The notes: generated from the sequence alone by a model not told the origin. A stretch of DNA of 64,000 nt from Candidatus Moraniibacteriota bacterium (GCA_041583775.1 JBFHFF010000001.1:94676-158675), one strand, 5' to 3'; shown: positions 5,304 through 25,863, numbered from the stretch's first letter. Numbers and translations are program-made.

Positions 5304-5516
5304 ATGTTAAAAAACCTGAACATTCCGAGTCTAGAAAAAGTTTTTCCCATAATCGGAAAGGTATTGTACGCAGTAGCTCTATTATTAGCATTTGCGTTTC
5401 TTTTGTTTAGTGCTAACCAAAAAAATAACCACAGAAAAGTTGGACTCAGTCATTCAATGGCACTCGAAGATTTCATCATAAACATAAATGAGGAAAAGAG
5501 TTTAACGGAAGAGTGA
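5304..5516 (+). CDS. Small membrane protein (70 aa), unknown function
   Basis: Strong SD (AGGGAGGA) sits 6-7 nt upstream of the ATG. One TM helix (VLYAVALLLAFAFLLF). Followed by an intergenic region with hairpins. Confidence 0.4.
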   Translation: MLKNLNIPSLEKVFPIIGKVLYAVALLLAFAFLLFSANQKNNHRKVGLSHSMALEDFIININEEKSLTEE

Positions 5517-5850
5517 CATCTCGCAAGAATGCTTTTATTAAAGAATGCACTTCAAAGCTTTGATAATAAAGCTCTCGTGGATGATGGCTTTGTTTTATCC
5601 TGAGATATTCTCTTGGTGTCAGATTCTCCTGAAAATTACCGCATGAAAATATTACTAAATAATTTTACATATGAAATTACTGCGGATGTCAGAAACAGAT
5701 ATCTCAATGCCTTGAGGGAGTTTTACAAGGTATGTGATTTAGAAATTTCTTGGGTAGCTGGCATTGCTGGCTAACCCTACTCTGAACCATAAACTGTGGA
5801 AATAAGCCGAGTTCGAAAATTTTCAAACTCGACTTATTCATTTCAAAAAT

Positions 5851-5882: not shown

Positions 5883-8369
5883 TTATTTTGATAACTGTCT
5901 TAAATCTTTCAAACCAGCTCTTTTCCTAATTTCAGCTTCCACGATTTCTCTGTCTCTTCCATATTTATACCTTGACAACTCCTTAAGGGCATTTCGCATT
6001 TCGATACTACCTTTTGTTGGAGGATATGTTTTCATATCAAATGATGCTGAAGTTTTATTGTTCATTAGGAGCTTTGCAAAGCACTGATAGTTTGCCACAT
6101 TAATCAAGTCACTAGCATCAAACTCTGGGGCAAATTGCTTTTCAAGAAATTCTGCATCCTCTGAACCAACTCGAAATGCGCAAATAGAACCAACATTACC
6201 AAAAACGGCCTTGGAGATGTTTTCTGAAAGTTGTCCAATAAATTGATGTGCAACTATAAGTGCAAGTCTATACTTTCTTGCTTCTGCCAAAATCTGAGAA
6301 ATTGAATCAGTCGTGAAATTGTGAAACTCGTCTATATATAAATAAAAATCCTTTCTTTCATCTTCTTCCATATCAACACGAGAAAGTGCTGCCATTAACA
6401 ATTTACCAACAATAATCATTCCCAATAAATGACTGTTAATCTCTCCAATTTTCCCCTTGGAAAGGTTTACTAAGAGAATTTTTTGCTTATCCATAATATC
6501 CCTGAAATCAAAAGTACTCTTTTGTTGAGAAATTATAGGACGCATAATATCATTTGAAATAAATGTTGTAAGTTTTGATGTAATATATGGGGCAATGTTT
6601 TCCAAAGCAGCGTCTCCGCCTGCTTTTTCGGCCTCTTTTTCCCAAAAATCAACGACTGTTGCATCCTGACAACGCTTTAGTTTTTCTTTTCTAAATTCAA
6701 GATCACGAAAAACTCTCGGGACTTCCATTAATGTTGAACCAATATCTGGACTATCCATAACCAACAACATAGCATTACGCATATATTGCTCAAACATTGG
6801 ACCACCAGTTGATTTCAAATCATACAACTTGTCAAAAATAGCTAAGGTTTCATTTATAACAAATGTTTTTTGTTCTGGACGCTTCGGATCATATTCCATA
6901 ATATTCAAAGAAAATGGCCTTTCCATATCAGATGGATCAAAATAAATCACATCATCTGCTCTTTCTTTTGGAATATTTTCCAAGATATGATCAATCAAAT
7001 CGCCATGTGGATCAATAATGCACATTCCAGATTTCTTAGCATCCTGTTTTGCCATTTCTTCTATGAATGTTGATTTACCTGTTCCGGTTTGTCCTATGAT
7101 ATAAAGATGCCTTCTACGGTCATCCTCTGATAATCTCATTTCCGTTTTAGATCCTCTAAAGTCACTATATCCAACAGCGAGACCTTCTTTTGGTATATCT
7201 GCTGGAGGAGGAGCAATTTTAGATTTGAGCCAATTTATCTTTGGGGTTTCTGTGGTAGAAATTGGAAAATGAAAAATACTTGCCAATTCTTCAGTATCCA
7301 GTACCATCTTGTACCTGTCTGAAAAATTTCTAAAAATATAATCATAGGCGATTTTATGCGCATTTTTCGCCTTATTCCTAATTGCAATAAATTTATTCAA
7401 ACTTTCATCCTCAAACTGAACAAAGGCGTTTTCTATTGATGCCAAAATCATTTCGGCCCTCTCTTTTGTTGCAGCTGATGCAACTAATCGCACATTAGTT
7501 TCAAAATGCGCTTTTTTAACCTTAGATTCAAGCCTCGATATCACCTCTTGCTCTTCTGGTGTCAAGGAAATTGGTGTTTTTTCAGCAGCTTGTTCTTTTA
7601 CTGTCTTGCCCATAAGAACACCTGAAATATCTGAACCAAGATTCTTTGCAACAAGCCCCGTCTTTGACATTGAAGCTTCACCTAATCGTTGTCCTTGCTG
7701 CATTTGTTGAGCAGTCCTTATGCCTCTCTCTTTCCACTTCCTACTACTACGACGCAAAATAATTTGAATTGCCGCTCCTTCTTGCTCGTCTTCAAGTTTT
7801 GATAATGCATTTGCAATATTTTGCAAAGGATCTGATTCAAGATGTCTATATGTTCTTATCGGAAAAGAATCTTCCTTCTTAAGCTGTAAGCGACTTGCAA
7901 CAGTAACCCCATCTGGTCTAAATATTGTATATTCTGAAGCACTTTCAATGTGGGCAGCTGGATAGAAACTATGTATTTGTTTTTCAATAACCTCCTTAAA
8001 ACGAGCTGGCATAGCTACATAAAACACAATATTCTCACTATCAGAAGAGACTGCAATTTCAAGTGCAATATGCGGTTCTCCAAAAATAATTCTATGAAAA
8101 AAATCTCTATGTTGCGGTAAATCAGAAAGAGATGATAATAATTGTTCCATCTTGGAAATCTCTTCTTTTTCTCCAGCTCCTCTTGTTTCTGGGGATTGCC
8201 CATTTTGAGACTTTGGCTTTACCACCTTAATAACATCCAGTGTTTGGTTTAGGGATTGAGTTAAATCAGCCCTAAACCTAAGATATCTCCGCAGTAAAAG
8301 CCATCCACCAGAAATAAGCATCAACATTCCAGTGAAAAGCGAAAGCCCAAAAAACAAACTTTGCATCAT
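5883..8369 (-). CDS. TraD/TraG/VirD4-type type IV coupling protein-like ATPase (TrwB AAD-binding/DUF87-like P-loop), N-terminal TM anchor
   Basis: N-terminal TM helix, then a long linker, then Walker A HLYIIGQTGTGKST, the adjacent IIDPHGD motif, Walker B FYLYIDEFHNF and the C-terminal LALIVAHQFIGQL motif typical of the TraD/TraG C-terminal region. Confidence 0.7.
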   Translation of the reverse strand: MMQSLFFGLSLFTGMLMLISGGWLLLRRYLRFRADLTQSLNQTLDVIKVVKPKSQNGQSPETRGAGEKEEISKMEQLLSSLSDLPQHRDFFHRIIFGEPHIALEIAVSSDSENIVFYVAMPARFKEVIEKQIHSFYPAAHIESASEYTIFRPDGVTVASRLQLKKEDSFPIRTYRHLESDPLQNIANALSKLEDEQEGAAIQIILRRSSRKWKERGIRTAQQMQQGQRLGEASMSKTGLVAKNLGSDISGVLMGKTVKEQAAEKTPISLTPEEQEVISRLESKVKKAHFETNVRLVASAATKERAEMILASIENAFVQFEDESLNKFIAIRNKAKNAHKIAYDYIFRNFSDRYKMVLDTEELASIFHFPISTTETPKINWLKSKIAPPPADIPKEGLAVGYSDFRGSKTEMRLSEDDRRRHLYIIGQTGTGKSTFIEEMAKQDAKKSGMCIIDPHGDLIDHILENIPKERADDVIYFDPSDMERPFSLNIMEYDPKRPEQKTFVINETLAIFDKLYDLKSTGGPMFEQYMRNAMLLVMDSPDIGSTLMEVPRVFRDLEFRKEKLKRCQDATVVDFWEKEAEKAGGDAALENIAPYITSKLTTFISNDIMRPIISQQKSTFDFRDIMDKQKILLVNLSKGKIGEINSHLLGMIIVGKLLMAALSRVDMEEDERKDFYLYIDEFHNFTTDSISQILAEARKYRLALIVAHQFIGQLSENISKAVFGNVGSICAFRVGSEDAEFLEKQFAPEFDASDLINVANYQCFAKLLMNNKTSASFDMKTYPPTKGSIEMRNALKELSRYKYGRDREIVEAEIRKRAGLKDLRQLSK

Positions 8370-8395: not shown

Positions 8396-8893
8396 TTATT
8401 TTATATCCTCCAATAAACCTTTTTTAATAAGAGCTTCCCTTGCCTGATCTACTGTTAAATTGTCGTGTACCTTGTCTAAGATATAATTATTGTTAATATG
8501 TTGTGCAACCTTTATTGCAAAATAAGGGTTTTTTTTGGAAGCTATTTCAACAATTTTAGCTATTTGATCGTCTGGATTTTGTAAAGAAGTTACATCCTTA
8601 GCATGGAATTTTACATGCTTTTCCTCATCTTCTTTTGTTTTTTGATTATCACTTTGTTGTGTTGTTTTGGCTGGAGATGGTGTATTTCCTATTTTTTCTT
8701 GAGCTTGCTCAATCGCAACTTCACTTTTGTGAACCATCTCTCGATTCCTTTCAATTAAATTTTCCAGTTTATTTTTTCCACTTCCCTGTTCTTTCTTAGC
8801 ATTTTCAGCATTTTCAGCATTTTTTAATTTTTCCACAAAGCTTTGGGCGCTATCTTCAACCTCTTGATTAATATCTAATTCCTGTTCTGGCAT
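8396..8893 (-). CDS. Acidic, low-complexity hypothetical protein (165 aa), co-operonic with the coupling ATPase
   Basis: ORF lies 26 bp upstream of the ATPase gene. E/K/Q-rich with an NAENAENA repeat. No TM. Confidence 0.5.
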   Translation of the reverse strand: MPEQELDINQEVEDSAQSFVEKLKNAENAENAKKEQGSGKNKLENLIERNREMVHKSEVAIEQAQEKIGNTPSPAKTTQQSDNQKTKEDEEKHVKFHAKDVTSLQNPDDQIAKIVEIASKKNPYFAIKVAQHINNNYILDKVHDNLTVDQAREALIKKGLLEDIK

Positions 8894-8932: not shown

Positions 8933-9304
8933 TTATTCCTCACCAAATGATTCTGTCACATTTTCCACCTCTGACTCATTTCCTATAGCGTTATTCATAA
9001 ATTCATGCATCTCTTTTTTATATTTACCTATTTCGTCCAAAATAAGACTCTCCACATTAGGAAGATTTTCCTTCAAAAATAAATCAACCTCTTCCCCGCT
9101 TTCACTAGCAGAATTTATTACGCTGGCAAAATCTTCTTTTTTATTTTCAGGGAGTTCGGAAACTATTCTTAAAACTATTCTTTGTTGAATAATCTCTCCC
9201 ATTTGTATTAAAGTTTCCTCTCGTTGCTCTTTTGGCAGACTATCGATACCAAGTTCTTTTATTAAATCAACTTGAGCGGTTTTGATGTTTTCTTTTAAAG
9301 ACAT
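8933..9304 (-). CDS. Small acidic hypothetical protein (123 aa), co-operonic
   Basis: Separated by 11 bp from the upstream giant gene and 39 bp from the next gene. Acidic C-terminal tail. Confidence 0.5.
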   Translation of the reverse strand: MSLKENIKTAQVDLIKELGIDSLPKEQREETLIQMGEIIQQRIVLRIVSELPENKKEDFASVINSASESGEEVDLFLKENLPNVESLILDEIGKYKKEMHEFMNNAIGNESEVENVTESFGEE

Positions 9305-9315
9305 TTATTTTTTAA

Positions 9316-12300
9316 TTATTTTTTATCAAATTTTTCAATATATTCATTAAATTCACTTAATTCTTTAAGTAACTTCTTGTTTATAGTTTTACCCCCCTTG
9401 ATGTACGCAATAATTCTCTCACTAACGCTACAATCTTCCATACCTGGAATATTTTCGGTCTCCTTTCGAATTTCATTAGCAAGTAACATCGCTCTTGAAT
9501 GATCCAAATAAAATAATTTTTCTTCTACACTATCTGCCTTAAGTATCTCATTGTCATCAACTACAACCTTGATTTGTTTCGCAAAATCGCTCCACTTTTT
9601 GTCTTTAAAGGTGGTTGTGATTTCCTCTTCTGAAACTTTCATTAAACTTTCATCAATATCATCCCCTAATTGCTCAGGTACTTGAGGATTTGTTTTTTCA
9701 ACTTCAGACTCCACTCCAACTTCACCTAAACTCTCTCTATTGGTTTCAGCCGCCTTCTTTGGCTTTTCACCAACTTCCTCTTCTGGCTTTTCAGATTTAT
9801 TTTCTTCAGGAACTTCTTTTATTTTCGCTTCACGATGAACATTATCTCCACCTACTTCTTCTTTCTTGCTAACTGGAGCGCCTTCTTCAATAAATCTCTC
9901 ATCGTCTACATCAAAATTCACTGTGGGAGTTTTCTCTTTTGGCCAATGATCCATTCTTGCTTCAATCTTCCCATTCTCACCAATTGGTGCCAGTCTATCA
10001 ATTCCTTCTTCTTTTGCGATTACCCCTCCTTCTAGCGAATCACTGTTTTCTTGAAGAAATACTGGCTTTATTATCTTTGGTTTATAGTTCTCTTTTAAGG
10101 CATCTTCTAAAACAATTCTTCCCGGTTTTTTTATCGCCGTCTTATCTATTTCATCATAGACAATTCCAGCAACTCTGCCCATTCTTCCAGCCTCTCTGAC
10201 ATCAACAGTTCCTAGTACCTGCCTCACTTCTGGCGATAAACTTAAACTATTATTTTTCCAAGCAGCTACCGCCTCTGCTTCTGTTTTTGGGAAATCATCC
10301 AATTGTTTTAATGTCATCTTGCTCATCGCCCGCCAAGTAACATCTCCCTCCTTAATTTTTAATTCAACTAATCTTGAACTGAGCTCTTCCTTTGTTAAAA
10401 TTTTTGGACTGTTCTCTGCATCCGCTAGGACTTCTTTTTGATTTTCCAATTGAGAAGATTTTTGACCTTGTGATAAGCTATCGACACCCCCACCATCATC
10501 TGTCTGTTCATTTAATTTATTTCCGAAAAATTTCTCATGCTCTATTTGTGCACCAGGCAATGAATCAGTCTCTGTTTTTGCCCTAAGAATATATTCTCTT
10601 CCCCCAGCCTTTATGCGCTTAATCCAAAGACCTTCCGTTTCTTTAGAACTTCCTCCATGTTCTTCAATGAATTTATTATGAGCTTCTTCGCTATATTTTA
10701 ATTTAAATTCCTTATACGCATCAGTTTTCTTTAATCCCCCAGCCTCAAACTGTTCATCAATTTGTTCTAAACTAGCTTCTTTAAAATATTCATCTCTGTC
10801 ATTTCTGACATGCTCAATCCAAGCATTATTTGCTTCAATTTTAGTTCCATCATATCCTTCAACAAATTTGATATGAGCAGCCGCACTGTGCTCTGCTTGA
10901 AATTTCTTAAAAGCCTCAGTATCTTCAAATCCTGCCGTTTCAATTTTATTGTTCGTTTCTACAAATCGATTCTCCGGAGCTCTTTCTTTTGAATTATTTC
11001 CTTCTGGATATGAACCTCCACTCTTTGCATTAATAATCTGGGAATCACTCGATTCATTTACATCAAATGAACCAAATTCAGAAATTTTATTTTTTGCATC
11101 TATTACTCGATTTTCCCAAAAATTTTCTAATATTTCGTCATCTGCTCCGTTATGATCTTCGATAAATTTTGCATGCGCCTCTGGGCCAAATTTCCGTTCA
11201 AATTCCTCCAAAACCGGCTCTTTTACTCCACTTAATCTTAGTTTATTTATTGCATCCTCAAAAGATTCATTTTTAATATTAGCTAGACTTTCAATAGCAT
11301 CAGGTCTTTCTGTTGATGACTCAGGACTCGACACACTTGCTGCCTCAGCAACATTTCTTGTAGTTGTTGTATGATTCCCTGAATCGTTAGGAATTTCAGA
11401 AGTAAAATTGGGAATATCTGACCAATCCAAAAAAGCTCTGGCCCCACCCCCTACAACAAGCCCCGTAATTCCTGCCGCTGCCATAGCCTTAAGATTGTCA
11501 TTTCTCTCTATGTTCATTTTCTTTTGCACCATCGAAACCATATCAAGTTGACCACCCTTACTAAAATAATTGTCTATTGTTTTTTTCTCAATTTTAACCT
11601 TCCTTTCATCTCTTGTTGATTCAGTTCTATTTTTAACATCCCTAAAGGCTGCCGCACCAAGAGCTCCTCCAGGTAAACTTCTAACCACCTTCATTCCCAT
11701 TCTCGAAACTCCAACTCCTAATGCAGTACTAATTGCCCCACCTGCAACAAATGAACCAACTGTACCAACTACACCAGCCAATAATGTTCCATAAACGAGC
11801 TTCTCTTTTCTAGACAACTTTTTATATCCAGCCGATAAATTCTCAATAATACCCTTTTCACGCTCATTTAAAATCTCTTTCCTTGCATTATTTATCTCTA
11901 ACATTTTATTGATAAGGTCTTGCATTGGACTTATTTTCTCGACCATTTTCTCTCCTGAATCAGTTACAACCTCTGAATCAACAACTTTCTCCATAAATAT
12001 ATATTTTCTCATTAATTCATTTTTATCCTCACTATTCACCATTCCATGATCCAGGGCAATTTTTCTACTCTCAACTCTTGTTTGGATAAAATCGCTATGT
12101 GCTTGCTTAAAAGCACTCTCTGTCTCTTTTATTCTTTTCTTTGCTTCATACAATTCTTTCATCGCTTCAGCATCATTTCCAAGAAAAATTTTCATCCTCG
12201 CAAGACTTCTTTCAACAATCCCCAATCTATTTCCCTTTTTTTCATAATCTATTTGTGCGTTCTTCCAGTCTCGAAATGCCTCATTCATTTTCAAGTGTTT

Positions 12301-14343
12301 TTCTTTTTCGATATGATTTTCGTCTTTCTCTCCCACTTCAATTCCTGGTTCAGTCTCTATTTCATCTTCTGGTTTGTCTTTTGAAGTTTCTGTCTGTTCA
12401 GCATCCTTGACAATTTTCTCAAAATTTATTGATTCATTTAAGGTACCCGTTTCTTCTCCACGCCTTTCAAGTTCTTCTTTGTATTTTTTTATACTAACTT
12501 CAACTTCTTGAAACTGATTTTTTTTCTCTTTATTAGTTTTATTACTATCTAATAATAAATTGTTCCTGATTTCATTCAACTGCAAGAGTTCCTCCTGCAA
12601 AACAGAAGTTTCAACTTCTTCAAGATTTTCCTCAGATTTATTATTTTTTACCTCCTCTGTGTTCTCTTCTTGCTTGTATTTTTCTTCTTGACCACCCATA
12701 TTCTCCTCATCTTTTCTCCCAAAATCGTCTGTTCTGTCCATCCATTCTTGAAAATGAGTTCCTTGCTTCTTCAGTCTTTTTCCTCTTTCCTGATTATCAA
12801 TTATTTTTTCACCTTCTGTTTTATCCATCCATTCCCGAAAGTGAGTTCCTTGGGCCCTCAATGCCTTCTCCGTTGTTGTTTCTCCTGGACCTTCTTTTAT
12901 TTTCACCTCTTTTTTTAATTCGTTTTTTATCTCCGAACCTATAGCTGACTCTGTGCTAGGAGCTTCCTCGTTTATTCCCAATTTTTCCTTTGGCCAGTTA
13001 TTTTGAACTTTTTTTTCATTTCCAGAATCAAAAACTCCATCAACATTCGACTCTTTTCGATAACCTCCATTTAAAATCATCTGTCTCAATTCTTTAACTG
13101 AAACATACCTACCCTCTTTTTCTCCGGCAATTAAAATTCTAGCTTGATGTTGTTTACTTTGTTGTGAAAATTTATCTTTTTCAATTACAAAAGGCTTCAA
13201 TCCTCCCTGATTGCTTTTAAAAACAAATTCCTTACTTTTTCCAAACTCAGCAACAAAATCTTCTGCCCTCATTCCACCAGCTTCAACTTCGGGAATGACT
13301 TCTATTTCTGGATATTCTTCATTAATTAACTCTTCTAATTTATCTGGAGACATAATTTTTTCCCCACCAATATCCGTCCCTTCAACTTGAATTTCCCATC
13401 TATTCTGAGCTTTCTCATATAGATACTTCGTAATTTTAAGTTTTTTTATCCCATCCTTGCTTTTATGAACAGACCCAACCACACCAAAAATATTCATCAT
13501 ATCCTTAAGACTCAAAACCTCTCCGTTCTTTTTTTCTAGTGCACTTACCTCCATTGAGTCAATTTCTTTAAAAGATAATTCTTCTTTACTACCATCACCA
13601 CTACCTTCTTCCACTCTCTTAAAGTTCTTAAACAACTCTAAAAATTCTTTACCGTCCATTATTTCGTCATCAGAACCACTCTTCCAATCAGCGTCTAAAT
13701 TGATTACATTTACACCCTCCTCAACCATTGTTCCAGAGGGCAAAAAAGCAATATGAACTCTACCATTTTCATAACTAACAATTTTCATATGCTTCTTACC
13801 ATCCTCGCTAACATAAATCTCATTAGGATCTATTTTATGTAACTGAAAAAAATCCTCTCCAAAATTCTCTTCTTGGATTTCTACTTTTTTATTTTCAATA
13901 CCTTTCTTGTTATCTTTTTTTTGAACTTCAACCTTTTCTGTCTCCAACTCAACCTCTTCAATCTTTTTAATAAAACTTTCATCAACTAGACCCTCTACCT
14001 CACCCTTAACAATTCTCTCCAAACTAGAAAGTCTTTTACTTCTCAAAAATTCACAAATAACCGCATCTGTAGCTTGGGCATTTTCCAAATTCAAATCACC
14101 CGCCATTGCAGTTTCTTTTAACTTGGCAGCAAGCTCTGCAAGATCAATAATTAATTTTCCCTGAAGCTCCTTTCTTTCACCTGGAGAATGCTTCATCAGA
14201 TAATCGTTGATAACATCCTTAGAAAACTTCCTCTCAAGTACAGACACAACGCCATTTTTAATCTCCTTTCTTTGTTCTGTTTGCTCAAAATTTTCTACCT
14301 GCGAAGAACTTTCTCTTGATTCTTCTGTTGTTGTTTCTGACAT
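9316..14343 (-). CDS. Giant (1675 aa) charged protein with central glycine-rich TM segments and internal sequence repeats; unknown function
   Basis: Single uninterrupted ORF with no signal peptide. Central hydrophobic Gly-rich segments (LVYGTLLAGVVGTVGSFVAGGAISTALGVGV; AMAAAGITGLVVGGGARAF). Three repeats of the xFxxKxxxEAHxKFIE[DE]HxG motif and a duplicated GTHF[RQ]EWMD[KR]T unit. Confidence 0.7.
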   Translation of the reverse strand: MSETTTEESRESSSQVENFEQTEQRKEIKNGVVSVLERKFSKDVINDYLMKHSPGERKELQGKLIIDLAELAAKLKETAMAGDLNLENAQATDAVICEFLRSKRLSSLERIVKGEVEGLVDESFIKKIEEVELETEKVEVQKKDNKKGIENKKVEIQEENFGEDFFQLHKIDPNEIYVSEDGKKHMKIVSYENGRVHIAFLPSGTMVEEGVNVINLDADWKSGSDDEIMDGKEFLELFKNFKRVEEGSGDGSKEELSFKEIDSMEVSALEKKNGEVLSLKDMMNIFGVVGSVHKSKDGIKKLKITKYLYEKAQNRWEIQVEGTDIGGEKIMSPDKLEELINEEYPEIEVIPEVEAGGMRAEDFVAEFGKSKEFVFKSNQGGLKPFVIEKDKFSQQSKQHQARILIAGEKEGRYVSVKELRQMILNGGYRKESNVDGVFDSGNEKKVQNNWPKEKLGINEEAPSTESAIGSEIKNELKKEVKIKEGPGETTTEKALRAQGTHFREWMDKTEGEKIIDNQERGKRLKKQGTHFQEWMDRTDDFGRKDEENMGGQEEKYKQEENTEEVKNNKSEENLEEVETSVLQEELLQLNEIRNNLLLDSNKTNKEKKNQFQEVEVSIKKYKEELERRGEETGTLNESINFEKIVKDAEQTETSKDKPEDEIETEPGIEVGEKDENHIEKEKHLKMNEAFRDWKNAQIDYEKKGNRLGIVERSLARMKIFLGNDAEAMKELYEAKKRIKETESAFKQAHSDFIQTRVESRKIALDHGMVNSEDKNELMRKYIFMEKVVDSEVVTDSGEKMVEKISPMQDLINKMLEINNARKEILNEREKGIIENLSAGYKKLSRKEKLVYGTLLAGVVGTVGSFVAGGAISTALGVGVSRMGMKVVRSLPGGALGAAAFRDVKNRTESTRDERKVKIEKKTIDNYFSKGGQLDMVSMVQKKMNIERNDNLKAMAAAGITGLVVGGGARAFLDWSDIPNFTSEIPNDSGNHTTTTRNVAEAASVSSPESSTERPDAIESLANIKNESFEDAINKLRLSGVKEPVLEEFERKFGPEAHAKFIEDHNGADDEILENFWENRVIDAKNKISEFGSFDVNESSDSQIINAKSGGSYPEGNNSKERAPENRFVETNNKIETAGFEDTEAFKKFQAEHSAAAHIKFVEGYDGTKIEANNAWIEHVRNDRDEYFKEASLEQIDEQFEAGGLKKTDAYKEFKLKYSEEAHNKFIEEHGGSSKETEGLWIKRIKAGGREYILRAKTETDSLPGAQIEHEKFFGNKLNEQTDDGGGVDSLSQGQKSSQLENQKEVLADAENSPKILTKEELSSRLVELKIKEGDVTWRAMSKMTLKQLDDFPKTEAEAVAAWKNNSLSLSPEVRQVLGTVDVREAGRMGRVAGIVYDEIDKTAIKKPGRIVLEDALKENYKPKIIKPVFLQENSDSLEGGVIAKEEGIDRLAPIGENGKIEARMDHWPKEKTPTVNFDVDDERFIEEGAPVSKKEEVGGDNVHREAKIKEVPEENKSEKPEEEVGEKPKKAAETNRESLGEVGVESEVEKTNPQVPEQLGDDIDESLMKVSEEEITTTFKDKKWSDFAKQIKVVVDDNEILKADSVEEKLFYLDHSRAMLLANEIRKETENIPGMEDCSVSERIIAYIKGGKTINKKLLKELSEFNEYIEKFDKK

Positions 14344-14539
14344 AGATTTTTATAATAATCTTCAAGCAGCTTATTTTATGCTTTTTGTTTTTATTGATAC
14401 AAATTCAAATAAACAGTTTTGGTTTTAGATTCCAAACACTGAAATTATTATTAGTTTATTTAATGATATTATACCATACATTGTTTACAATACCAATCAA
14501 AACAAATATAATAAATAAAACTAACAACAAAAACGAAAA

Positions 14540-16189
14540 GTGAAAGAAAAAAGAAGAAAAAAATACACAGTAAACAACCTTACACCGACAATAAAAGTTT
14601 TTTTACTAAACAACAAAAGAGCTTTTTTCTCTATCTTTTTTTTGTTCATTTTAATACTGTCGCTTGCACTAAGAATATATCATCTGGACAAAGCACCTAC
14701 TGGAGTTTCCGAGAAAGAAGCAGACTTTGGTTTGCTTGCACTAAATTTAGAAAATGCTGGAATTATAAACTCCTTAGTCGAAAAAGATAGTGGCGTTTTC
14801 ACACTTTTACTTTTTCTTGGTTTTAAGGTTTTTGGAATCAATTTTTTCGGCTTAAGAATTGTGAGTGCTCTAATTGGCATATTAACAATTCTCGGCTTCT
14901 TCCTTCTTCTTGGGAAATTAAAATTTCCCCGCTCTCTGTCTTTACTGGGAACATTTCTCATATCATGCTCTTTTTGGCACATAAACCTTTCTCGCTTAGC
15001 CCTACCTGAAATCCTCATTCCTTTTTCCACTATTTGGTTTTCATTTTTTTTATTTTGCGGATTTTTTTCAAAAAAATATAAGTACTTCATCTTATCTGGA
15101 GCATTTTTTACATTGGGAGTTCTAGTTTACCCGCTAATGCTATTTTTAATTTTTATCCCGATCTTCTTTTTCTCTTTTTTTATTTTTCTAGACAAAAAAC
15201 TTTTATTAAGTTTACGACCTCAATTATTTCTTTTTATATTTTCAATATTATTTTTTTCGATTCCTTTATTTTTTCAAATCCAAAATAATCCTGGATTTTT
15301 TCGAAACAACTTCATTCAATTCGCAGACCCTTATGAATCAAGCACTTCCATCATAAAAAGCACCTTAGCATATCTGGGTTCTTTTTTTTACATAAACAAC
15401 ACCCTCCAACTCCAGAATAAGGATTTTTTACCAGCCTTTCCACTTGCATGGTTAATTCTATTTATTTTTGGTTTCTTTTTGTCAGCAAAAAATATTACCC
15501 TGACAATCTTAGGCTCGTTAAAAAATAAAAGTATCCCAAAAAATATTCATGCATCTATTCTTGCTCAATCCATCTTCTTTGTGGCAATTTTAACTGGTTT
15601 ATTAAATTCAAAACAAAGTCTCAGCTCTGAGCATTTCTCTTTAATAATGCCAGCAATTTTTATCTTCTGTATAATCCCACTTGAATACCTCTTGGAAGTA
15701 TATCAAAAACTAAGACTATCTATTAGAATTTCACTAAAAAAATGGCGTTGGAATGTTATGCAAATCTCAATGTTAATCTTATTACTAGCAATCATCCTGA
15801 CTGGTTTTTCACAGACATATTTATATTTTGGAATCTTCCAAAAAGAATTAAATGCGAGACACTTATTACAAAAAAAGGATACTGACTTTGGAAAAATAAT
15901 CAAAAGCATTAACAGGGAAAAAAACAACTTTATTATATTTTCCGGAGATATTGCTTCTACGGAAAATTTAAAAACTATCGAATTTTCTGGCTTTCCTGAA
16001 ATTGAAAACTATACTTTCGTTCACTCTCAAGAAGATTTCCCACAAATTAATTGTGAAGATTCCCTGGTGGTTTTTTATGACTCAAATGAGTTGCTACGAA
16101 AACAATTTCAAAAACAATGCCCTTTAAATAATTCTCAAAAACAATTTTATTCTAATGGCAAACAAACTTTTTGGACTATGAAGGAATAA
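14540..16189 (+). CDS. GT-C fold glycosyltransferase, ArnT/PMT-like (polytopic membrane protein)
   Basis: At least 10 TM segments. N-terminal RIYHLDKAP...EKEADFG loosely matches the first-loop DE motif of the GT39/GT83 family. The start appears to be GTG. Confidence 0.45.
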   Translation: MKEKRRKKYTVNNLTPTIKVFLLNNKRAFFSIFFLFILILSLALRIYHLDKAPTGVSEKEADFGLLALNLENAGIINSLVEKDSGVFTLLLFLGFKVFGINFFGLRIVSALIGILTILGFFLLLGKLKFPRSLSLLGTFLISCSFWHINLSRLALPEILIPFSTIWFSFFLFCGFFSKKYKYFILSGAFFTLGVLVYPLMLFLIFIPIFFFSFFIFLDKKLLLSLRPQLFLFIFSILFFSIPLFFQIQNNPGFFRNNFIQFADPYESSTSIIKSTLAYLGSFFYINNTLQLQNKDFLPAFPLAWLILFIFGFFLSAKNITLTILGSLKNKSIPKNIHASILAQSIFFVAILTGLLNSKQSLSSEHFSLIMPAIFIFCIIPLEYLLEVYQKLRLSIRISLKKWRWNVMQISMLILLLAIILTGFSQTYLYFGIFQKELNARHLLQKKDTDFGKIIKSINREKNNFIIFSGDIASTENLKTIEFSGFPEIENYTFVHSQEDFPQINCEDSLVVFYDSNELLRKQFQKQCPLNNSQKQFYSNGKQTFWTMKE

Positions 16190-16238: not shown

Positions 16239-16640
16239 ATGACAACAATAGACCCTACACAATTTAAAATTTGTATCGTTGAAGATGAGGAAAGTATCAG
16301 AGAATTATATCGCGCAAAATTAGAAGGGGAACATTATCAGGTTTTTACAGCTAAAGATGGTTTGGAGGGGCTGAAGTTATTAAAGGAAAATCCACCTAAC
16401 ATTGCCTTAGTGGACTTAATGATGCCGAATATGACTGGCTATGAGTTGATGGAAAAAATGAAGAATGATCCTGATTTAAAAAACATTCCCATTATTATTC
16501 TCACAAACTTTGACGACACTGAATCCATAAATAAAACAAGCCATTTTAATGCTGACTTTTATTTAGTAAAAGCTCAATACTCTCCATCTGATGTAGCACA
16601 TATCATAAAAGAAGTTCTTGAAGCTCATCATGAATTTTAG
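16239..16640 (+). CDS. Single-domain response regulator (CheY-like receiver)
   Basis: ICIVEDEE acidic pocket, phospho-acceptor Asp in ALVDLMMP, conserved T (IIILTN) and K region. There is no output domain and no histidine kinase in the window. Confidence 0.85.
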   Translation: MTTIDPTQFKICIVEDEESIRELYRAKLEGEHYQVFTAKDGLEGLKLLKENPPNIALVDLMMPNMTGYELMEKMKNDPDLKNIPIIILTNFDDTESINKTSHFNADFYLVKAQYSPSDVAHIIKEVLEAHHEF

Positions 16641-17506: not shown

Positions 17507-18985
17507 TTATCTTTTCACTTGGCAAATTTTCATTCCCTGAAAATTACCTACTTCTTCCATTAACATTTCTTCACCCCAATCACAAGTCCAGTCAATGATA
17601 ATCATCCTGTTATCACTTTTAATTTCTGTTAGATTCGTTATCCTGTTATCATTTCCAACAACAACCCACTTACTAAAATCTTCCATTGGATTTGATCTGT
17701 GATAATATCTAACATTTTCTTCCCCGAAATAATATCTAGCAGATGTATAGCCGAATGGTCCATCCGCAACAACAATACTCTTATTAAAAACGGGATATTC
17801 TTTCATAAAATTTGAGACCTCTGTCCAACCTCCTTGAAATTGGATTGGCACCAATAGAAATATAGTTGCCACATAAATTCCAAGAGTTATTATCCAAGAC
17901 CACTTTGAACTAAAAACTAAAGTGATCATTCCTGCGAATAGGAGATAAATCAAAAGTGCAGATGGCATAAAATACCTTGACACATAGAGTTTTAAATTAA
18001 AGTGAGCAAGAATGATTAGAAACAAAAGAGTCCCCAATGAGATAACGGCCAATACAAAAACTTCTTTTTTTTGACGCCCTTTAAACCAAGTGTAACATAG
18101 CATTGCTATTATTAAAGTAAAAACCAATAAACCCATTGATGTTCCATCGAACAAGGGGATATCTTTATATAATTTAACAAATTCAACTGATTCAGGAACC
18201 CCCCCACTCCCTGGTTGATGACCGAAAAAGAAAATCTGCAAAGTTTTTGGTATATCACTAAGATTAGCTGGTGGAATCCAACCCAAATTGCCTTTCAGCA
18301 TATGTGGAATAAAATACCGAAGCCAACTGACAAAAAAAACTATTATGGTTCCCACTCCTATCCAGAAATTTTTATGTCCCAAAATTGCACTTATCCAGTT
18401 CTTTTTTTTAAAATTCTTTCCATAAAAAATATAACAAACATAAAAAATAATGAAAAAGAACAATGAAAGATAATGTGTCAGAAAAGACAAACCAGCAAAA
18501 ATTCCCCAAAAAATCCAGTCTCTTCTTTTGTCATTATCTAGCGCCCTCACGAAAAACCAAACAGACCAAAGAAAAAGAAAACCAAATAATGAATACATTC
18601 TAGCTTCTTGTGAATATTCAATTGCAAAAGGTGAAATAGCGGTTATAGCTGCAGCCAAAAGACCAGTTCTGGTATTAAACATTCTCTTTCCAATCCAATA
18701 GATTGAAATCACGGTTAAAATTCCAAAAAGAAATGAGAAAGAGCGAATTCCCTCTGGAGAATAACCAAATAAAGCGCTCCAGGGTTTAGCCAACCAATAA
18801 TATAATGGTGGATGAACATCTGCAAAAATCATCTGATTCATATCCCCCCAAGATGCTTTCAATAAAATTCCAGTAAAAGCTTCATCGTACCAAAAATCAC
18901 GCTGCCAAATAATTGGAGTGTACCTTAGAATCATCGCCAGAAATGTTAACAGTGTCAAAATAATGGCTGGAAAGAATTTTTTCAT
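17507..18985 (-). CDS. GT-C glycosyltransferase, family 39/83-like (PMT/ArnT-type)
   Basis: Polytopic membrane protein with the first-loop motif WYDEAFTG and the downstream DVHPPLYYWL typical of PMT/ArnT-type transferases. Confidence 0.65.
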   Translation of the reverse strand: MKKFFPAIILTLLTFLAMILRYTPIIWQRDFWYDEAFTGILLKASWGDMNQMIFADVHPPLYYWLAKPWSALFGYSPEGIRSFSFLFGILTVISIYWIGKRMFNTRTGLLAAAITAISPFAIEYSQEARMYSLFGFLFLWSVWFFVRALDNDKRRDWIFWGIFAGLSFLTHYLSLFFFIIFYVCYIFYGKNFKKKNWISAILGHKNFWIGVGTIIVFFVSWLRYFIPHMLKGNLGWIPPANLSDIPKTLQIFFFGHQPGSGGVPESVEFVKLYKDIPLFDGTSMGLLVFTLIIAMLCYTWFKGRQKKEVFVLAVISLGTLLFLIILAHFNLKLYVSRYFMPSALLIYLLFAGMITLVFSSKWSWIITLGIYVATIFLLVPIQFQGGWTEVSNFMKEYPVFNKSIVVADGPFGYTSARYYFGEENVRYYHRSNPMEDFSKWVVVGNDNRITNLTEIKSDNRMIIIDWTCDWGEEMLMEEVGNFQGMKICQVKR

Positions 18986-24837: not shown

Positions 24838-25863
24838 CTAATTACAATTATAACAAACATCCCAATGAGTATCCTCTCTTGCATAAATATTACCATCGCT
24901 ATCTTCATACATAACAGCGCCATCACCTCGAACGCCAGCAGGAGTAAAATTTGCCACAATATAATTATTAACTGCTAGTGTGTCTTCTATGTCCACTTTG
25001 TAACCATTCGCATGAGAAAATGTTGCCGTAGTATTATGCACAGTTGATGTCTCTGCTCCACCAGTTATGATAATTGGAGCTCCAACCTGACTTTGAAAAT
25101 CAATCACACCTTGAGTAGTAGCTGGCAAAAGATTTGACACATTGGTAGCACCAGGGCTTGATTCCCAAACGGTAATATCATATGGAATCAAAGCATCTCT
25201 CGCATTTTGTTCATTCAAATCACTTGACACACTGCCAGTTGTTCCTGTGGTCCCCGTTGTTCCTGTTGCTCCTGTTAATCCAGTTGTTGCCAATACAGCA
25301 GAGCTTGGAGCAGCAGTATCAAAAACACTATCACTAACGCATTGAAATTCATACCAGCGTCCGCCAGAACCAACTCCAAGAAAAGACTCATTAGCAGAAA
25401 TAAAAACCAAAATAGTATAAACAAGTAACCAAGAAAGAAGAAATCCCGCAAAACCCATCAGAGTTTTTGAAATAATTCCCTTAGCGATTGTTACTGTTCC
25501 TGGATTTCCAGCTGACACTAGATAGGTAACCCCTCCGATCGTAAGAGATAATAAAGCTAATATAATTATCCAGGCAAACATCAAATCAAAAATATTCTTT
25601 ACCATTATAAGCAAATGGCAAACCGTGCAACTTTTTTGTTCGTCATAAGGAGTCCTGCTGTCATCGCAACTTCTTCCGCAAGGCACAATAGCTCTGTCAA
25701 ATTGCAAAATACTCACACCAGCTATTCCTTCTGAAGGAGCCTTAGTTCCAGCACAATCAAGGGCTTTAGCTGTTAAAGGAGCGCCAAAAAAACATCCCGC
25801 AAAAAGAAAGATTGCCAATCCCGAGAAGAAAAAATTTCTGAGATTTTTAATTTTTATTTTCAT
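24838..25863 (-). CDS. Secreted Cys-rich two-helix membrane protein with VirB2/TrbC-like topology, (GTT)n linker and C-terminal possible M15-like zinc-peptidase motif
   Basis: Signal peptide with lipobox-like LFAGC. Six Cys in CGRSCDD...CTVC. Two hydrophobic helices separated by a short loop (IFDLMFAWIIILALLSLTIGGV / LMGFAGFLLSWLLVYTILVFI). Linker TGLTGATGTTGTTGTTG. C-terminal SHANGYKVDI fits HxxGxxxD, with a later DTHWD. Confidence 0.5.
   Translation of the reverse strand: MKIKIKNLRNFFFSGLAIFLFAGCFFGAPLTAKALDCAGTKAPSEGIAGVSILQFDRAIVPCGRSCDDSRTPYDEQKSCTVCHLLIMVKNIFDLMFAWIIILALLSLTIGGVTYLVSAGNPGTVTIAKGIISKTLMGFAGFLLSWLLVYTILVFISANESFLGVGSGGRWYEFQCVSDSVFDTAAPSSAVLATTGLTGATGTTGTTGTTGSVSSDLNEQNARDALIPYDITVWESSPGATNVSNLLPATTQGVIDFQSQVGAPIIITGGAETSTVHNTTATFSHANGYKVDIEDTLAVNNYIVANFTPAGVRGDGAVMYEDSDGNIYAREDTHWDVCYNCN
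25235..25288. repeat. Imperfect 9-bp tandem repeat (6 units, consensus ccNgttgtt) inside CDS 24838..25863
   Basis: Units are ccagttgtt, cctgtggtc, cccgttgtt, cctgttgct, cctgttaat and ccagttgtt. They encode the Gly-Thr-Thr linker on the minus strand. Confidence 0.7.

What the first reader, a model, noticed from the sequence alone, without database searches (positions are those of the whole stretch)
9316..14343. Internal repeat architecture of the 1675-aa protein: three EAHxKFIE[DE]HxG modules, a duplicated GTHF[RQ]EWMD unit, and Gly-rich TM segments without a signal peptide
The protein begins with an acidic, signal-less N-terminus of roughly 800 residues, mostly E/K-rich. The middle has Gly-rich hydrophobic stretches (LVYGTLLAGVVGTVGSFVAGGAISTALGVGV; AMAAAGITGLVVGGGARAF) that look like membrane hairpins. 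The C-terminal half has three modules of about 70 aa, each ending in a His-containing motif (AAAHIKFVEGYDG / EEAHNKFIEEHGG / PEAHAKFIEDHNGADD). It also has two copies of GTHF[RQ]EWMD[KR]T about 30 aa apart. At DNA level the duplicate units tccatccattc(tt/cc)gaaa(a/g)tgagttccttg lie 90 bp apart at 12735-12853. Conserved His/Glu pairs suggest a metal- or ligand-binding repeat. I do not recognise the combination as a described family.
Basis: seen in the sequence. Interest (0 to 1): 0.55.

Follow-up and report, generated by a model that had tools for sequence, protein, structure and literature searches.

The report
Giant membrane partner of orphan coupling-ATPase
A real 1,675-residue, fast-evolving membrane protein of a Moranbacteria-type (CPR) bacterium, built partly from lineage-specific internal repeats, is the first gene of a widely conserved operon ending in an orphan VirD4-like ATPase; it matches no described family and is a candidate partner for ATPases whose role in these bacteria is unexplained.

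Summary

The metal-binding reading is not supported. In homologous modules the His is replaced by Tyr, Phe or Glu; only one Trp is nearly invariant.

The context is more informative than the repeats. In Moranbacteria-type genomes the gene order is [large variable protein] - DUF5663 - small acidic protein - VirD4-like ATPase. It was found in 47 of 63 loci with enough upstream sequence. A GT-C (PMT_2) glycosyltransferase lies divergently upstream in 40 of 46 loci.

Only a ~300-aa core is shared across the family: a helical domain, a 32-36-aa Gly/Ala hairpin, a charged loop, and a 16-20-aa TM segment. Flank charges suggest N-terminus inside and C-terminus outside.

My best reading: this is the membrane-anchored, surface-exposed, rapidly diversifying partner of an exapted coupling ATPase. 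The function is inferred, not shown.

The parts
9316..14343 (-). Gene for the 1675-aa protein ('BIG'), first gene of the operon
   Evidence: ORF list. Identical protein P0001 found on 3 contigs. Collinear orthologs.
14468..14496 (-). Promoter-like site upstream of BIG (TTGGTA-17-TATAAT with TG extension, 10/12)
   Evidence: Consensus scan only. No minus-strand terminator-like site was found between 5883 and 14343.
13999..14286 (-). aa 20-115: predicted helical bundle, 64% identical to the closest ortholog
   Evidence: AF2 model pLDDT 67-87; segment identity.
13039..13860 (-). aa 162-435: three small predicted beta/alpha units (162-243, 266-348, 360-432). Found only in the four closest orthologs.
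   Evidence: AF2. Foldseek gave no significant match; best E was 9e-3, with only faint Tudor/SH3-like resemblance. The units are not significantly similar to each other in sequence, z<=2.7.
12304..13038 (-). aa 436-680: E/K-rich, poorly conserved linker prone to duplications
   Evidence: 38% identity to the ortholog. The L001 ortholog duplicates a different unit in this region.
12694..12867 (-). Tandem duplication of a 29-aa / 87-nt unit carrying GTHF[RQ]EWMD (aa 493-521 and 522-550)
   Evidence: 55/87 nt identical against random 27 +/- 4.5. DNA repeat D2. The closest ortholog has one copy and more distant orthologs have none.
11839..12303 (-). aa 681-835: conserved juxtamembrane helical domain (with one beta-hairpin). 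N-terminal part of the family-wide core.
   Evidence: pLDDT 75-93. It is the part of the core matched by most of the 21 exhaustive-search hits and by the 55 locus ORFs.
11704..11799 (-). aa 849-880: hydrophobic segment 1, a 32-aa charge-free Gly/Ala-rich stretch with a central AGG. Putative re-entrant helical hairpin.
   Evidence: Charge-free run of 29-40 aa in about 60 of 74 family proteins. Both flanks are net positive. Composition is G 23%, A 27%; in the window there are 8 small residues at i,i+4 spacing.
11488..11703 (-). aa 881-952: basic amphipathic stretch followed by a charged helical loop
   Evidence: Alignment A4. Helix at pLDDT 71-79. 64% identity to the ortholog over aa 906-952.
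11428..11487 (-). aa 953-972: hydrophobic segment 2, a putative single transmembrane pass (in to out)
   Evidence: 16-22-aa charge-free run, conserved in position. Flank net charge is +3.1 before and -1.2 after, n=50.
11242..11427 (-). aa 973-1034: Ser/Thr/Asn-rich, poorly conserved stretch after the last TM (putative extracellular stalk)
   Evidence: Across the family, S+T+P is 0.22 after segment 2 against 0.10 before segment 1. 27% identity to the ortholog.
11059..11241 (-). Module M1 (aa 1035-1095), PEAHAKFIEDHNG
   Evidence: Module HMM E 1e-18 to 1e-28. No counterpart in the closest ortholog. pLDDT only 52-66.
10759..10941 (-). Module M2 (aa 1135-1195), AAAHIKFVEGYDG
   Evidence: Helical, pLDDT 80-91.
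10564..10749 (-). Module M3 (aa 1199-1260), EEAHNKFIEEHGG
   Evidence: Helical, pLDDT 80-91.
10078..10416 (-). aa 1310-1422: conserved small helical C-domain
   Evidence: 55% identity to the ortholog. pLDDT 77-94. Part of it also matches in L007 and L011.
9784..9948 (-). aa 1466-1520: second copy of the [NH]WPKEK...KIKE[GV]P unit. The first copy is aa 449-495, DNA 12859-12999.
   Evidence: DNA repeat D1, 48 nt at 75%. Protein z 5.2.
8933..9304 (-). DUF5663 protein: 123 aa, pI 4.4, no TM. 11 nt downstream of BIG.
   Evidence: Pfam PF18908, 25.4 bits against cut-off 23.7. Present in 56 loci. pI.
8396..8893 (-). 165-aa acidic protein ('P165') with no family assignment
   Evidence: Homologs in 77 of 81 loci, directly upstream of the ATPase. 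No Pfam, NCBIfam or PHROG hit.
5883..8369 (-). 828-aa VirD4/TrwB-like ATPase with an N-terminal hydrophobic helix and a ~380-aa N-domain (DUF8128 in precomputed annotation)
   Evidence: Pfam TrwB_AAD_bind 40.2 bits and T4SS-DNA_transf 31.8 bits, both above cut-off. DUF8128. TrwB in PDB at E 2.7e-4. 91% identical to the L001 ortholog.
14540..16189 (+). GT-C glycosyltransferase (PMT_2/PMT), divergent from BIG. A conserved neighbour.
   Evidence: Pfam. A homolog lies upstream on the opposite strand in 40 of 46 loci and directly adjacent in 15.

Best explanation
The ORF is an intact gene for an integral membrane protein. It is the variable first gene of an operon conserved across Moranbacteria-type Patescibacteria: BIG - DUF5663 - small acidic protein (P165) - orphan VirD4-like ATPase. 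The operon is divergently paired with a GT-C (PMT_2) glycosyltransferase.

Proposed working:
- The first ~850 residues are cytoplasmic. They comprise a lineage-specific folded N-terminal region, an E/K-rich linker, and a conserved juxtamembrane helical domain.
- A 32-aa Gly/Ala-rich re-entrant hairpin plus one transmembrane pass anchor the protein beside the membrane-anchored ATPase.
- The last ~700 residues are outside the cell. They start with a Ser/Thr-rich stalk, a plausible target of the neighbouring glycosyltransferase. They carry lineage-specific helical repeats (the EAHxKF modules) and a small helical C-domain.
- The repeats are structural or binding modules of a rapidly diversifying surface region. 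They are not metal sites.
- On the cytoplasmic side, the ATPase and the two small acidic proteins act on or through BIG. They would either drive a substrate through an oligomer of its Gly-rich helices, or energise or assemble the surface structure.

Shown here: gene integrity, the repeats, the family core, synteny, the conservation gradient, and the flank-charge statistics.

Inferred: membrane insertion, N-in/C-out topology, glycosylation, physical coupling to the ATPase, and any transport role.
For: Gene integrity and operon structure:
- Real gene and repeats.
- Same strand, gaps of 11, 39 and 26 nt, one promoter-like site upstream, and no internal terminator-like site.

Synteny:
- Of 63 GTDB-species loci with at least 4 kb upstream of the ATPase, 47 carry a BIG-family ORF and 44 carry all four genes. 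Three more have look-alike large proteins with the same hydrophobic pattern.
- An iterated HMM started from BIG converges on 55 ORFs, almost all of them the gene directly upstream of DUF5663. This is an independent positional check on the homology.
- A PMT_2 gene lies upstream on the opposite strand in 40 of 46 loci, against 1 locus with a PMT downstream of the ATPase.

Membrane anchor and topology:
- The family core is a helical domain, a 29-40-aa charge-free Gly/Ala segment with a central AGG, a 70-100-aa charged loop, and a 16-22-aa charge-free segment.
- Net charge of the 15-aa flanks is +3.6, +2.1, +3.1 and -1.2 (n=50). By the positive-inside rule this fits N-in, hairpin, C-out.
- The region after the last TM segment is enriched in S/T/P, 0.22 against 0.10.

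Conservation gradient (window against three orthologous loci):
- ATPase 91/84/82%, DUF5663 68/63/59%, P165 63/52/50%, BIG 42/31/27%.
- Within BIG the C-terminal spacers and modules are the least conserved parts.

Repeat modules:
- EAHxKF-type modules occur in 9 family proteins, in 1-3 copies, always C-terminal to the last hydrophobic segment.

Literature:
- Patescibacteria hold 5,713 VirD4-like T4CPs, of which only 148 are near virB4. The authors raise exaptation to other functions (PMC12102498).
Against: - No experiment, and no dedicated topology predictor could be run. AF2 gives low confidence (pLDDT 22-47) for the hydrophobic region itself.
- Each arm of the 32-aa hairpin is too short to span a bilayer, and segment 2 is only 16-20 uncharged residues, so a monotopic anchor with both ends inside is not excluded.
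- The C-terminal half is acidic and E/K-rich like the N-terminal half, and has no Cys or other typical extracellular signature.
- PMT_2 genes are numerous in CPR genomes, so part of their proximity could be background. The strict upstream, opposite-strand pattern argues otherwise.
- Thirteen of the 63 loci lack a detectable BIG gene at this position.
- No other T4SS component (VirB4, VirB6, relaxase) is in the 64-kb window, so there is no known channel to couple to.
- Fold searches of the modelled parts (aa 1-445, 681-1450) gave no informative analogue.
Confidence: 0.45

Rival explanations
1. BIG is a substrate (effector) of the coupling ATPase rather than a fixed partner. DUF5663 and P165 would be its small acidic chaperones or adaptors. 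The moderately hydrophobic Gly-rich segments would stay out of the producer's membrane and insert into the host cell's membrane after transfer.
For: - The two small proteins are acidic, about 100-150 aa, and lack TM segments. This is the size and charge class of secretion chaperones and T4CP adaptors (the class comparison is from established knowledge of IcmS/IcmW and VirE1).
- BIG evolves far faster than the ATPase.
- Hydrophobicity of the segments is only moderate, Kyte-Doolittle 1.3-1.8.
Against: - The positive-inside flank pattern is conserved across 50 members, as expected for a protein inserted into its own membrane.
- The best-conserved part is the juxtamembrane core, not a terminal signal.
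- No translocation channel genes are nearby.
- There is one fixed positional ortholog per genome, not an effector repertoire.
Confidence: 0.2
2. Both termini are cytoplasmic. The Gly/Ala segments form a monotopic or hairpin anchor, and BIG is a cytoplasmic scaffold on the inner face of the membrane that organises the ATPase. The repeats would then be cytosolic protein-binding modules.
For: - Segment 1 (32-36 aa) and segment 2 (16-20 aa) are short for full membrane passes.
- The N- and C-terminal halves have similar acidic E/K-rich composition and essentially no Cys.
- There is no signal peptide.
Against: - The flank after segment 2 is the only one depleted in K/R and net negative (-1.2 against +2 to +3.6).
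- S/T/P enrichment begins right after segment 2.
- The conserved divergent GT-C glycosyltransferase acts on extracytoplasmic acceptors (established for PMT/ArnT-type enzymes).
- The C-terminal half is the fastest-evolving part.
Confidence: 0.2
3. One reading: the EAHxKFIE[DE]HxG modules are a metal- or ligand-binding repeat using conserved His/Glu pairs.
For: In the window, two of the three modules carry EAHxKFIE[DE]H.
Against: - In 14 aligned modules from 8 proteins the first His is H in 8, Y in 4, F in 1 and E in 1.
- The second His is missing in the window's own M2 and in several homologs.
- The nearly invariant residue is a Trp, and the conserved positions are aromatic or hydrophobic, as in a helical packing core.
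- There is no match to any metal-binding family, even at E<=5.
Confidence: 0.05
4. BIG is a phage tape-measure-like protein, or the operon is a prophage or mobile-element remnant.
For: - Tape-measure proteins are long, helical, variable, repeat-containing, and often have central Gly-rich hydrophobic segments (established knowledge).
- The ATPase matches phrog_5156 (E 1e-85) and has full-length relatives at 22-24% identity in Bacillus phage G and SPO1-like phages.
Against: - BIG, DUF5663 and P165 hit no PHROG.
- No phage structural genes are nearby. The flanks are housekeeping genes (tsaD, lgt, ddl, serS) and are syntenic in related genomes.
- The operon is present once in most Moranbacteria species, with a highly conserved ATPase.
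- The phage SP8 locus has no comparable large membrane protein next to its ATPase.
Confidence: 0.03

Closest known systems
Type IV coupling protein (VirD4/TrwB/TraD) modules with accessory proteins, e.g. DotL with the small acidic adaptors IcmS/IcmW/LvgA
   Same: - A membrane-anchored VirD4-like P-loop ATPase: Pfam TrwB_AAD_bind and T4SS-DNA_transf above cut-off, and a TrwB hit in PDB.
- It is encoded with two small acidic soluble proteins.
- It is encoded with a large protein it may act on or with.
   Different: - No VirB4, VirB6, relaxase or other T4SS gene in 64 kb.
- The ATPase has one N-terminal hydrophobic helix and a ~380-aa DUF8128 N-domain, and scores far below NCBIfam T4CP cut-offs (36 against 250 bits).
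- DUF5663 and P165 have no detectable similarity to known adaptors.
- BIG has no counterpart in described T4SSs.
VirB6/TrbL/PrgH-type T4SS membrane channel subunits
   Same: An integral membrane protein encoded with a T4SS-type ATPase, sometimes with large extensions.
   Different: VirB6-type proteins are polytopic (five or more TM helices). BIG has one hairpin-like segment and one short TM segment, and no Pfam match.
Firmicute type VIIb components (EssC FtsK-like ATPase with EsaA and small helical acidic WXG100 proteins)
   Same: The overall gene logic: an FtsK/HerA-superfamily ATPase, a large membrane protein with a big non-cytoplasmic part, and ~100-aa acidic helical proteins.
   Different: - The ATPase is VirD4-like, not EssC-like.
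- DUF5663 has no WxG motif.
- EsaA has terminal TM helices flanking its ectodomain, whereas BIG's TM segments are central.
- No sequence or fold match.
Phage tape-measure proteins
   Same: Long, mainly helical, length-variable, with internal repeats and central Gly-rich hydrophobic segments.
   Different: No PHROG or Pfam match, and a conserved chromosomal operon rather than a tail-gene context.
Glycine-zipper / small-xxx-small transmembrane packing motifs
   Same: Segment 1 is 56% Gly/Ala/Ser. In the window it has 8 consecutive small residues at i,i+4 spacing (G852...S880).
   Different: Across the family the i+4 periodicity is only modestly above shuffles (4.93 against 4.37 +/- 0.16) and is similar at i+5. 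The zipper is therefore a property of composition and of the close clade, not a proven family-wide motif.

Membership tests
   Whole protein at E<=0.01: no families. Module segment aa 1030-1265 at E<=5: no families. NCBIfam and PHROGs: none.
Metal-binding His/Glu repeat | Invariant liganding His/Glu across homologous modules | tested here: not met
   First His is H 8, Y 4, F 1, E 1 of 14. The second His is variable. Only Trp is nearly invariant.
VirB6/TrbL-type T4SS channel protein | Polytopic membrane domain (at least 5 TM) and a profile match (PF04610 or PrgH-type) | tested here: not met
   Two hydrophobic segments only. No Pfam hit.
Phage tape-measure protein | Profile match to TMP families | tested here: not met
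   No PHROG or Pfam hit.
Phage tape-measure protein | Location among tail genes | tested here: not met
   Neighbours are housekeeping genes and the ATPase operon.
Type IV coupling protein (applies to the neighbouring ATPase 5883-8369, not to BIG) | VirD4/TrwB-type P-loop NTPase domain | tested here: met
   TrwB_AAD_bind 40.2 bits (cut-off 20.5), T4SS-DNA_transf 31.8 bits (cut-off 20.1). Walker A GQTGTGKS and hhhhDE FYLYIDEF are read directly in the sequence. TrwB PDB hit at E 2.7e-4.
Type IV coupling protein (neighbouring ATPase) | N-terminal membrane anchor | tested here: met
   Residues 5-27, LFFGLSLFTGMLMLISGGWLLLR, are hydrophobic. There is one segment rather than the usual two.
Type IV coupling protein (neighbouring ATPase) | Genomic association with VirB4, a mating-pair-formation apparatus, or a relaxase | tested here: not met
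   None among the ORFs of at least 100 aa that were scanned against Pfam in the 64-kb window, which is most but not all of them. This agrees with the literature figure of 148 of 5,713 Patescibacteria T4CPs near virB4.
Type IV coupling protein (neighbouring ATPase) | Score above curated equivalog cut-offs | tested here: not met
   Best NCBIfam hit is conju_CD1115 at 36.3 bits against cut-off 250.
The new BIG family itself (operational definition from this work) | Core of helical domain + 29-40-aa charge-free Gly/Ala segment + charged loop + 16-22-aa charge-free segment | tested here: met
   Core.
The new BIG family itself (operational definition from this work) | Encoded directly upstream of DUF5663 - P165 - VirD4-like ATPase | tested here: met
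   Position.
Integral membrane protein with N-in/C-out topology | Experimentally or algorithmically determined topology | not testable with these tools
   Only Kyte-Doolittle profiles, charge-free runs and positive-inside statistics could be computed. No DeepTMHMM or TMHMM was available, and AF2 confidence is low in this region.

The most novel reading that the evidence does not exclude
BIG, DUF5663, P165, the orphan VirD4-like ATPase and the divergent GT-C glycosyltransferase together form a self-contained, previously undescribed envelope machine of Moranbacteria-type CPR bacteria. It would be a minimal coupling-ATPase-driven transfer or surface-display system that works without VirB4 or any classical T4SS channel. 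An oligomer of BIG's Gly/Ala-rich helices would provide the membrane conduit. BIG's glycosylated, fast-diversifying ectodomain, built from lineage-specific repeats such as the EAHxKF modules, would contact the host cell.
Probability: 0.15. Interest if true: 0.8.

Novelty: new variant of a known kind. Interest (0 to 1): 0.5.

Why it matters
Patescibacteria encode thousands of VirD4-like coupling ATPases that sit far from any type IV secretion genes, and their role is unknown (PMC12102498).

This locus gives a concrete, conserved set of candidate partners for one large group of them:
- a fast-evolving, probably surface-exposed giant membrane protein;
- two small acidic proteins;
- a GT-C glycosyltransferase.

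If the link is functional, it points to how these ultra-small, host-dependent bacteria build a surface or transfer apparatus from an exapted conjugation ATPase. The variable ectodomain would then be a candidate determinant of host contact.

The work also defines three undescribed conserved elements that could be curated as families:
- the juxtamembrane-hairpin core;
- the ~60-aa 'TxAFxxFQxxFGxEA[HY]xKF...W' module;
- the C-domain.

On its own, the internal repeat architecture that prompted the finding is an ordinary feature of a rapidly evolving, duplication-prone protein.

Tried and rejected
The same tool found nothing with the 56-sequence core alignment or with the 14-module alignment. The exhaustive HMMER search did find 21 representatives.

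2. Fold searches were uninformative.
   - N-terminal model against PDB: best E 9e-3, with only faint tandem-Tudor/SH3-like resemblance.
   - Core plus C-terminal model against PDB by Foldseek: best E 1.9.
   - The afdb50 library was unavailable.

3. The three N-terminal beta/alpha units are not demonstrable sequence repeats (z<=2.7).

4. I asked whether the window's N-terminal domain is a fused copy of the separate soluble gene found between PMT and BIG in 26 other loci. No sequence similarity was detectable, so this remains only a positional idea.

5. The prophage or tape-measure idea is rejected.

6. Assembly chimera is rejected.

7. A family-wide glycine zipper is only weakly supported.

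8. Literature searches for DUF5663, DUF8128, and Moranbacteria plus coupling protein returned nothing.

9. No Rfam family reaches its threshold anywhere in the window.
Full report
**1. What is in the sequence**

The window is 34% G+C. It carries a single 1675-aa ORF on the minus strand at 9316-14343.

- GTHF[RQ]EWMD at aa 499 and 528.
- PEAHAKFIEDHNG, AAAHIKFVEGYDG and EEAHNKFIEEHGG, with their His at aa 1057, 1157 and 1222.
- Gly-rich hydrophobic stretches at aa 848-880 and 953-972.

The N-terminus is acidic and has no signal-like hydrophobic stretch.

The repeats are well above chance:
- Local alignment z-scores against shuffles are 11.6 (M1-M3), 16.6 (M2-M3), 4.5 (M1-M2) and 12.4 (the GTHF units).
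- At DNA level the GTHF pair is a tandem duplication of an 87-nt (29-codon) unit, at 12694-12780 and 12781-12867. The units share 55/87 bases, against 27 +/- 4.5 for random in-frame pairs.
- A further long-range repeat, [NH]WPKEK...KIKE[GV]P, links aa 449-495 and aa 1466-1520.

The exact protein was assembled on three contigs, including two independent Logan assemblies. Orthologs are collinear. An assembly chimera is therefore excluded.

**2. No described family**

- Pfam, NCBIfam and PHROGs give nothing for the protein.
- Pfam at E<=5 on six separate segments gives nothing for the modules.
- There is no PDB sequence match at E<=1.

Two AlphaFold2 models were made:
- aa 1-445, from 4 sequences, mean pLDDT 62.7.
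- aa 681-1450, from 16 sequences, mean pLDDT 61.7.

Confident parts of the models:
- A helical bundle at aa 20-115.
- Three small beta/alpha units at aa 162-432.
- A helical juxtamembrane domain at aa 681-835 (pLDDT 75-93).
- Modules M2-M3, helical (pLDDT 80-91).
- A small helical C-domain at aa 1315-1420 (pLDDT 77-94).

**3. The family and its core**

An exhaustive HMMER search of 1.84 billion representatives with a profile of aa 681-1675 found only 21 proteins. All but the four closest, and one distant member matched through the modules (P0021), match only profile positions ~1-350, which correspond to aa 681-~1030.

I fetched 80 species-level loci through the neighbouring ATPase and iterated an HMM from BIG over all their ORFs. 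This converged on 55 ORFs, almost all of them the gene directly upstream of DUF5663. That positional agreement is an independent check that the remote matches are real homologs.

The shared core (alignment A4) has these parts, in order:
- A helical domain.
- A basic 'Y.KL..K.K' flank.
- A charge-free Gly/Ala-rich run of 29-40 residues (mostly 32-36) with a central AGG.
- A basic Gly-rich amphipathic stretch.
- A 70-100-residue charged helical loop.
- A second charge-free run of 16-22 residues.

Segment 1 is 23% Gly and 27% Ala. In the window it has eight small residues at i,i+4 spacing. Across the family this periodicity is only modestly above shuffles.

Everything outside the core is lineage-specific, including the N-terminal folded region, the E/K-rich linker and the C-terminal half.

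**4. The modules and the metal-binding idea**

A module HMM iterated over 74 family proteins finds 16 instances in 9 proteins (14 distinct instances in 8 distinct proteins, since one protein is present twice). Copy numbers are: window 3, its closest ortholog 2, P0003 2, P0021 3, and four others 1 each. Every instance lies C-terminal to the last hydrophobic segment.

The consensus is G[FM].DT.A[FY]..FQ..FG.EA[HYF].KF[IL]E.H....W........

Across the 14 aligned modules:
- The 'EAH' His is H in 8, Y in 4, F in 1 and E in 1.
- The second His is variable, and is absent in the window's own M2.
- The only nearly invariant residue is a Trp.

This pattern fits a helical packing core, not a metal site.

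Other lineages carry different C-terminal repeats, for example IAKKMGIEFDPEKT... units in P0003 and P0004. The closest ortholog has one GTHYQEWMD copy, and in its linker it duplicates a different coiled-coil unit.

So the protein evolves by recurrent local duplication.

**5. Genomic context**

BIG is followed on the same strand by three genes, with gaps of 11, 39 and 26 nt:
- A DUF5663 protein: 123 aa, pI 4.4.
- A 165-aa acidic protein with no family assignment.
- An 828-aa ATPase.

The ATPase has an N-terminal hydrophobic helix, a ~380-aa N-domain (DUF8128 in precomputed annotations), and a VirD4/TrwB-type P-loop domain. Pfam hits are above cut-off, Walker A is GQTGTGKS, and the TrwB PDB hit has E 2.7e-4.

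A promoter-like site lies upstream of BIG, and there is no terminator-like site inside the four-gene block.

Conservation of the arrangement:
- Of 63 loci with at least 4 kb upstream of the ATPase, 47 have a BIG-family gene in this position and 44 have all four genes.
- Three more loci have large look-alikes with the same hydrophobic pattern.
- A GT-C glycosyltransferase (PMT_2) lies upstream of BIG in 40 of 46 loci. It is always on the opposite strand, and directly adjacent in 15. Only one locus has a PMT within 10 kb downstream of the ATPase.
- In 26 loci an additional soluble, fast-evolving ORF (328-904 aa) sits between PMT and BIG.

The record titles name mostly Candidatus Moraniibacteriota or Parcubacteria MAGs.

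The rest of the window is housekeeping, and none of the ORFs scanned against Pfam is a VirB4, VirB6 or relaxase.

A recent survey reports 5,713 VirD4-like T4CPs in Patescibacteria, with only 148 near virB4. It raises exaptation for other functions (PMC12102498).

**6. Topology and evolutionary rate**

Net charge of the 15-residue flanks, averaged over 50 family members:

| Flank | Net charge |
|---|---|
| Before segment 1 | +3.6 |
| After segment 1 | +2.1 |
| Before segment 2 | +3.1 |
| After segment 2 | -1.2 |

By the positive-inside rule this fits three things: an N-terminus inside, segment 1 as a hairpin with both ends inside, and segment 2 crossing to place the C-terminal region outside.

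The 60 residues after segment 2 are enriched in Ser/Thr/Pro, 0.22 against 0.10 before segment 1. GT-C PMT/ArnT-type enzymes are known to act on extracytoplasmic acceptors, so the conserved divergent PMT gene agrees with an external, possibly glycosylated stalk.

Identity of the window's proteins to three orthologous loci:

| Protein | L001 | L002 | L003 |
|---|---|---|---|
| ATPase | 91% | 84% | 82% |
| DUF5663 | 68% | 63% | 59% |
| P165 | 63% | 52% | 50% |
| BIG | 42% | 31% | 27% |

Within BIG, the folded N-terminal units, the core and the C-domain are 53-75% identical to the closest ortholog. The post-TM stalk, the spacers and M1 are 3-27% identical.

**7. Interpretation**

The best-supported reading has four parts.
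- BIG is the membrane-anchored, variable component of a conserved module built around an exapted coupling ATPase.
- Its N-terminal part is cytoplasmic and docks near the ATPase and the two small acidic proteins.
- It is held in the membrane by a Gly/Ala-rich anchor.
- Its C-terminal part is rapidly diversifying, probably external, and carries clade-specific helical repeats.

Whether the ATPase moves a substrate through or along BIG, or energises assembly of a surface structure, cannot be decided here.

Rivals:
- BIG is itself the translocated substrate, and the small proteins are its chaperones.
- BIG is a monotopic cytoplasmic scaffold.
- The metal-binding idea is disfavoured.
- A phage tape-measure or prophage origin is disfavoured. 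The ATPase does have full-length relatives at 22-24% identity in Bacillus phage G and SPO1-like phages, but there they are not accompanied by a BIG-like gene.

**8. Novelty and score**

The repeat architecture by itself is an ordinary property of a duplication-prone, fast-evolving protein, and the metal-binding suggestion fails.

The value lies in three points:
- The protein family is undescribed.
- Its Gly/Ala hairpin core is conserved.
- It is tightly and widely linked to an orphan VirD4-like ATPase and a GT-C glycosyltransferase.

I rate it a new variant of a known kind, namely a coupling-ATPase module with novel partners, of moderate interest (0.5). There is roughly a 15% chance that it represents a self-contained new envelope machine.

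Noticed in passing
window 56073-63545 (-): A second giant ORF (2490 aa) with many Kelch repeats / beta-propellers plus FN3 and purple-acid-phosphatase-N-like domains. It is probably a large surface protein.
   Followed up: no
window 39912-43220 (-): A 1102-aa protein with a full T2SSE (PilB-type) ATPase domain (715 bits, 2 stretches), an MshEN domain, and a second P-loop region near aa 819-866. It appears to be an extended or tandem secretion ATPase.
   Followed up: no
window 24838-25863 (-): A 341-aa ORF with a sub-threshold match to T4SS_pilin (PF18895, 23.5 bits against cut-off 26.6). It is the only other T4SS-flavoured hit among the ORFs scanned in the window.
   Followed up: no
window 5883-8369 (-); L084 (Bacillus phage SP8): The DUF8128 + VirD4-like ATPase has full-length relatives at 22-24% identity in Bacillus phage G (gp156), SP-10 and SPO1-like phages, and matches phrog_5156 at E 1e-85. 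In SP8 the homolog sits among replication genes, with no BIG-like neighbour.
   Followed up: partly
window 5304-5516 and 5613-5774 (+): Two short ORFs (70 and 53 aa) occupy the 660-nt gap between tsaD and the ATPase. The orthologous locus L001 has a single 156-aa gene there. This may be a split or degraded gene.
   Followed up: no
L003 2961-9062 and L002 3613-8967 (orthologs P0003, P0004): These orthologs carry several copies of a different C-terminal repeat (…IAKKMGIEFDPEKT.VMQESG.PT.I.GKEVPMEL.TE.QQ…) that is absent from the window protein.
   Followed up: no
L001 10001-14806 (ortholog P0002): The closest ortholog has one GTHYQEWMDKT copy. In the linker it instead duplicates a coiled-coil unit, LQ.EL.QLNE.RN.LLLD...EK.DQFQEVE.S..KY..ELE.RGE.
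   Followed up: no
26 loci, e.g. L035 5136-6503, L051 2954-5668, L030 3281-5680: An extra soluble ORF of 328-904 aa lies between the divergent PMT gene and the BIG gene. These ORFs have no Pfam hit and are very divergent from one another. The window's lineage lacks this gene but has an extra ~440-aa N-terminal region on BIG. No similarity between the two was detected.
   Followed up: partly
L070 12644-14533: A second, shorter BIG-family paralog (629 aa) is encoded immediately downstream of the ATPase in this genome.
   Followed up: no
loci L005-L081 (record titles): Many MAG records carrying this Moranbacteria-type operon are titled 'uncultured Bdellovibrionales', 'Micavibrio sp.' or even 'Bathyarchaeia archaeon'. 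These labels look inconsistent with the gene content and may be mis-assigned bins or taxonomy.
   Followed up: no
window 14540-16189 (+) and 17507-18985 (-), with 16239-16640 (+): Two PMT_2-family GT-C glycosyltransferases flank a stand-alone response-regulator receiver gene next to the operon. The same trio is present in L001.
   Followed up: partly
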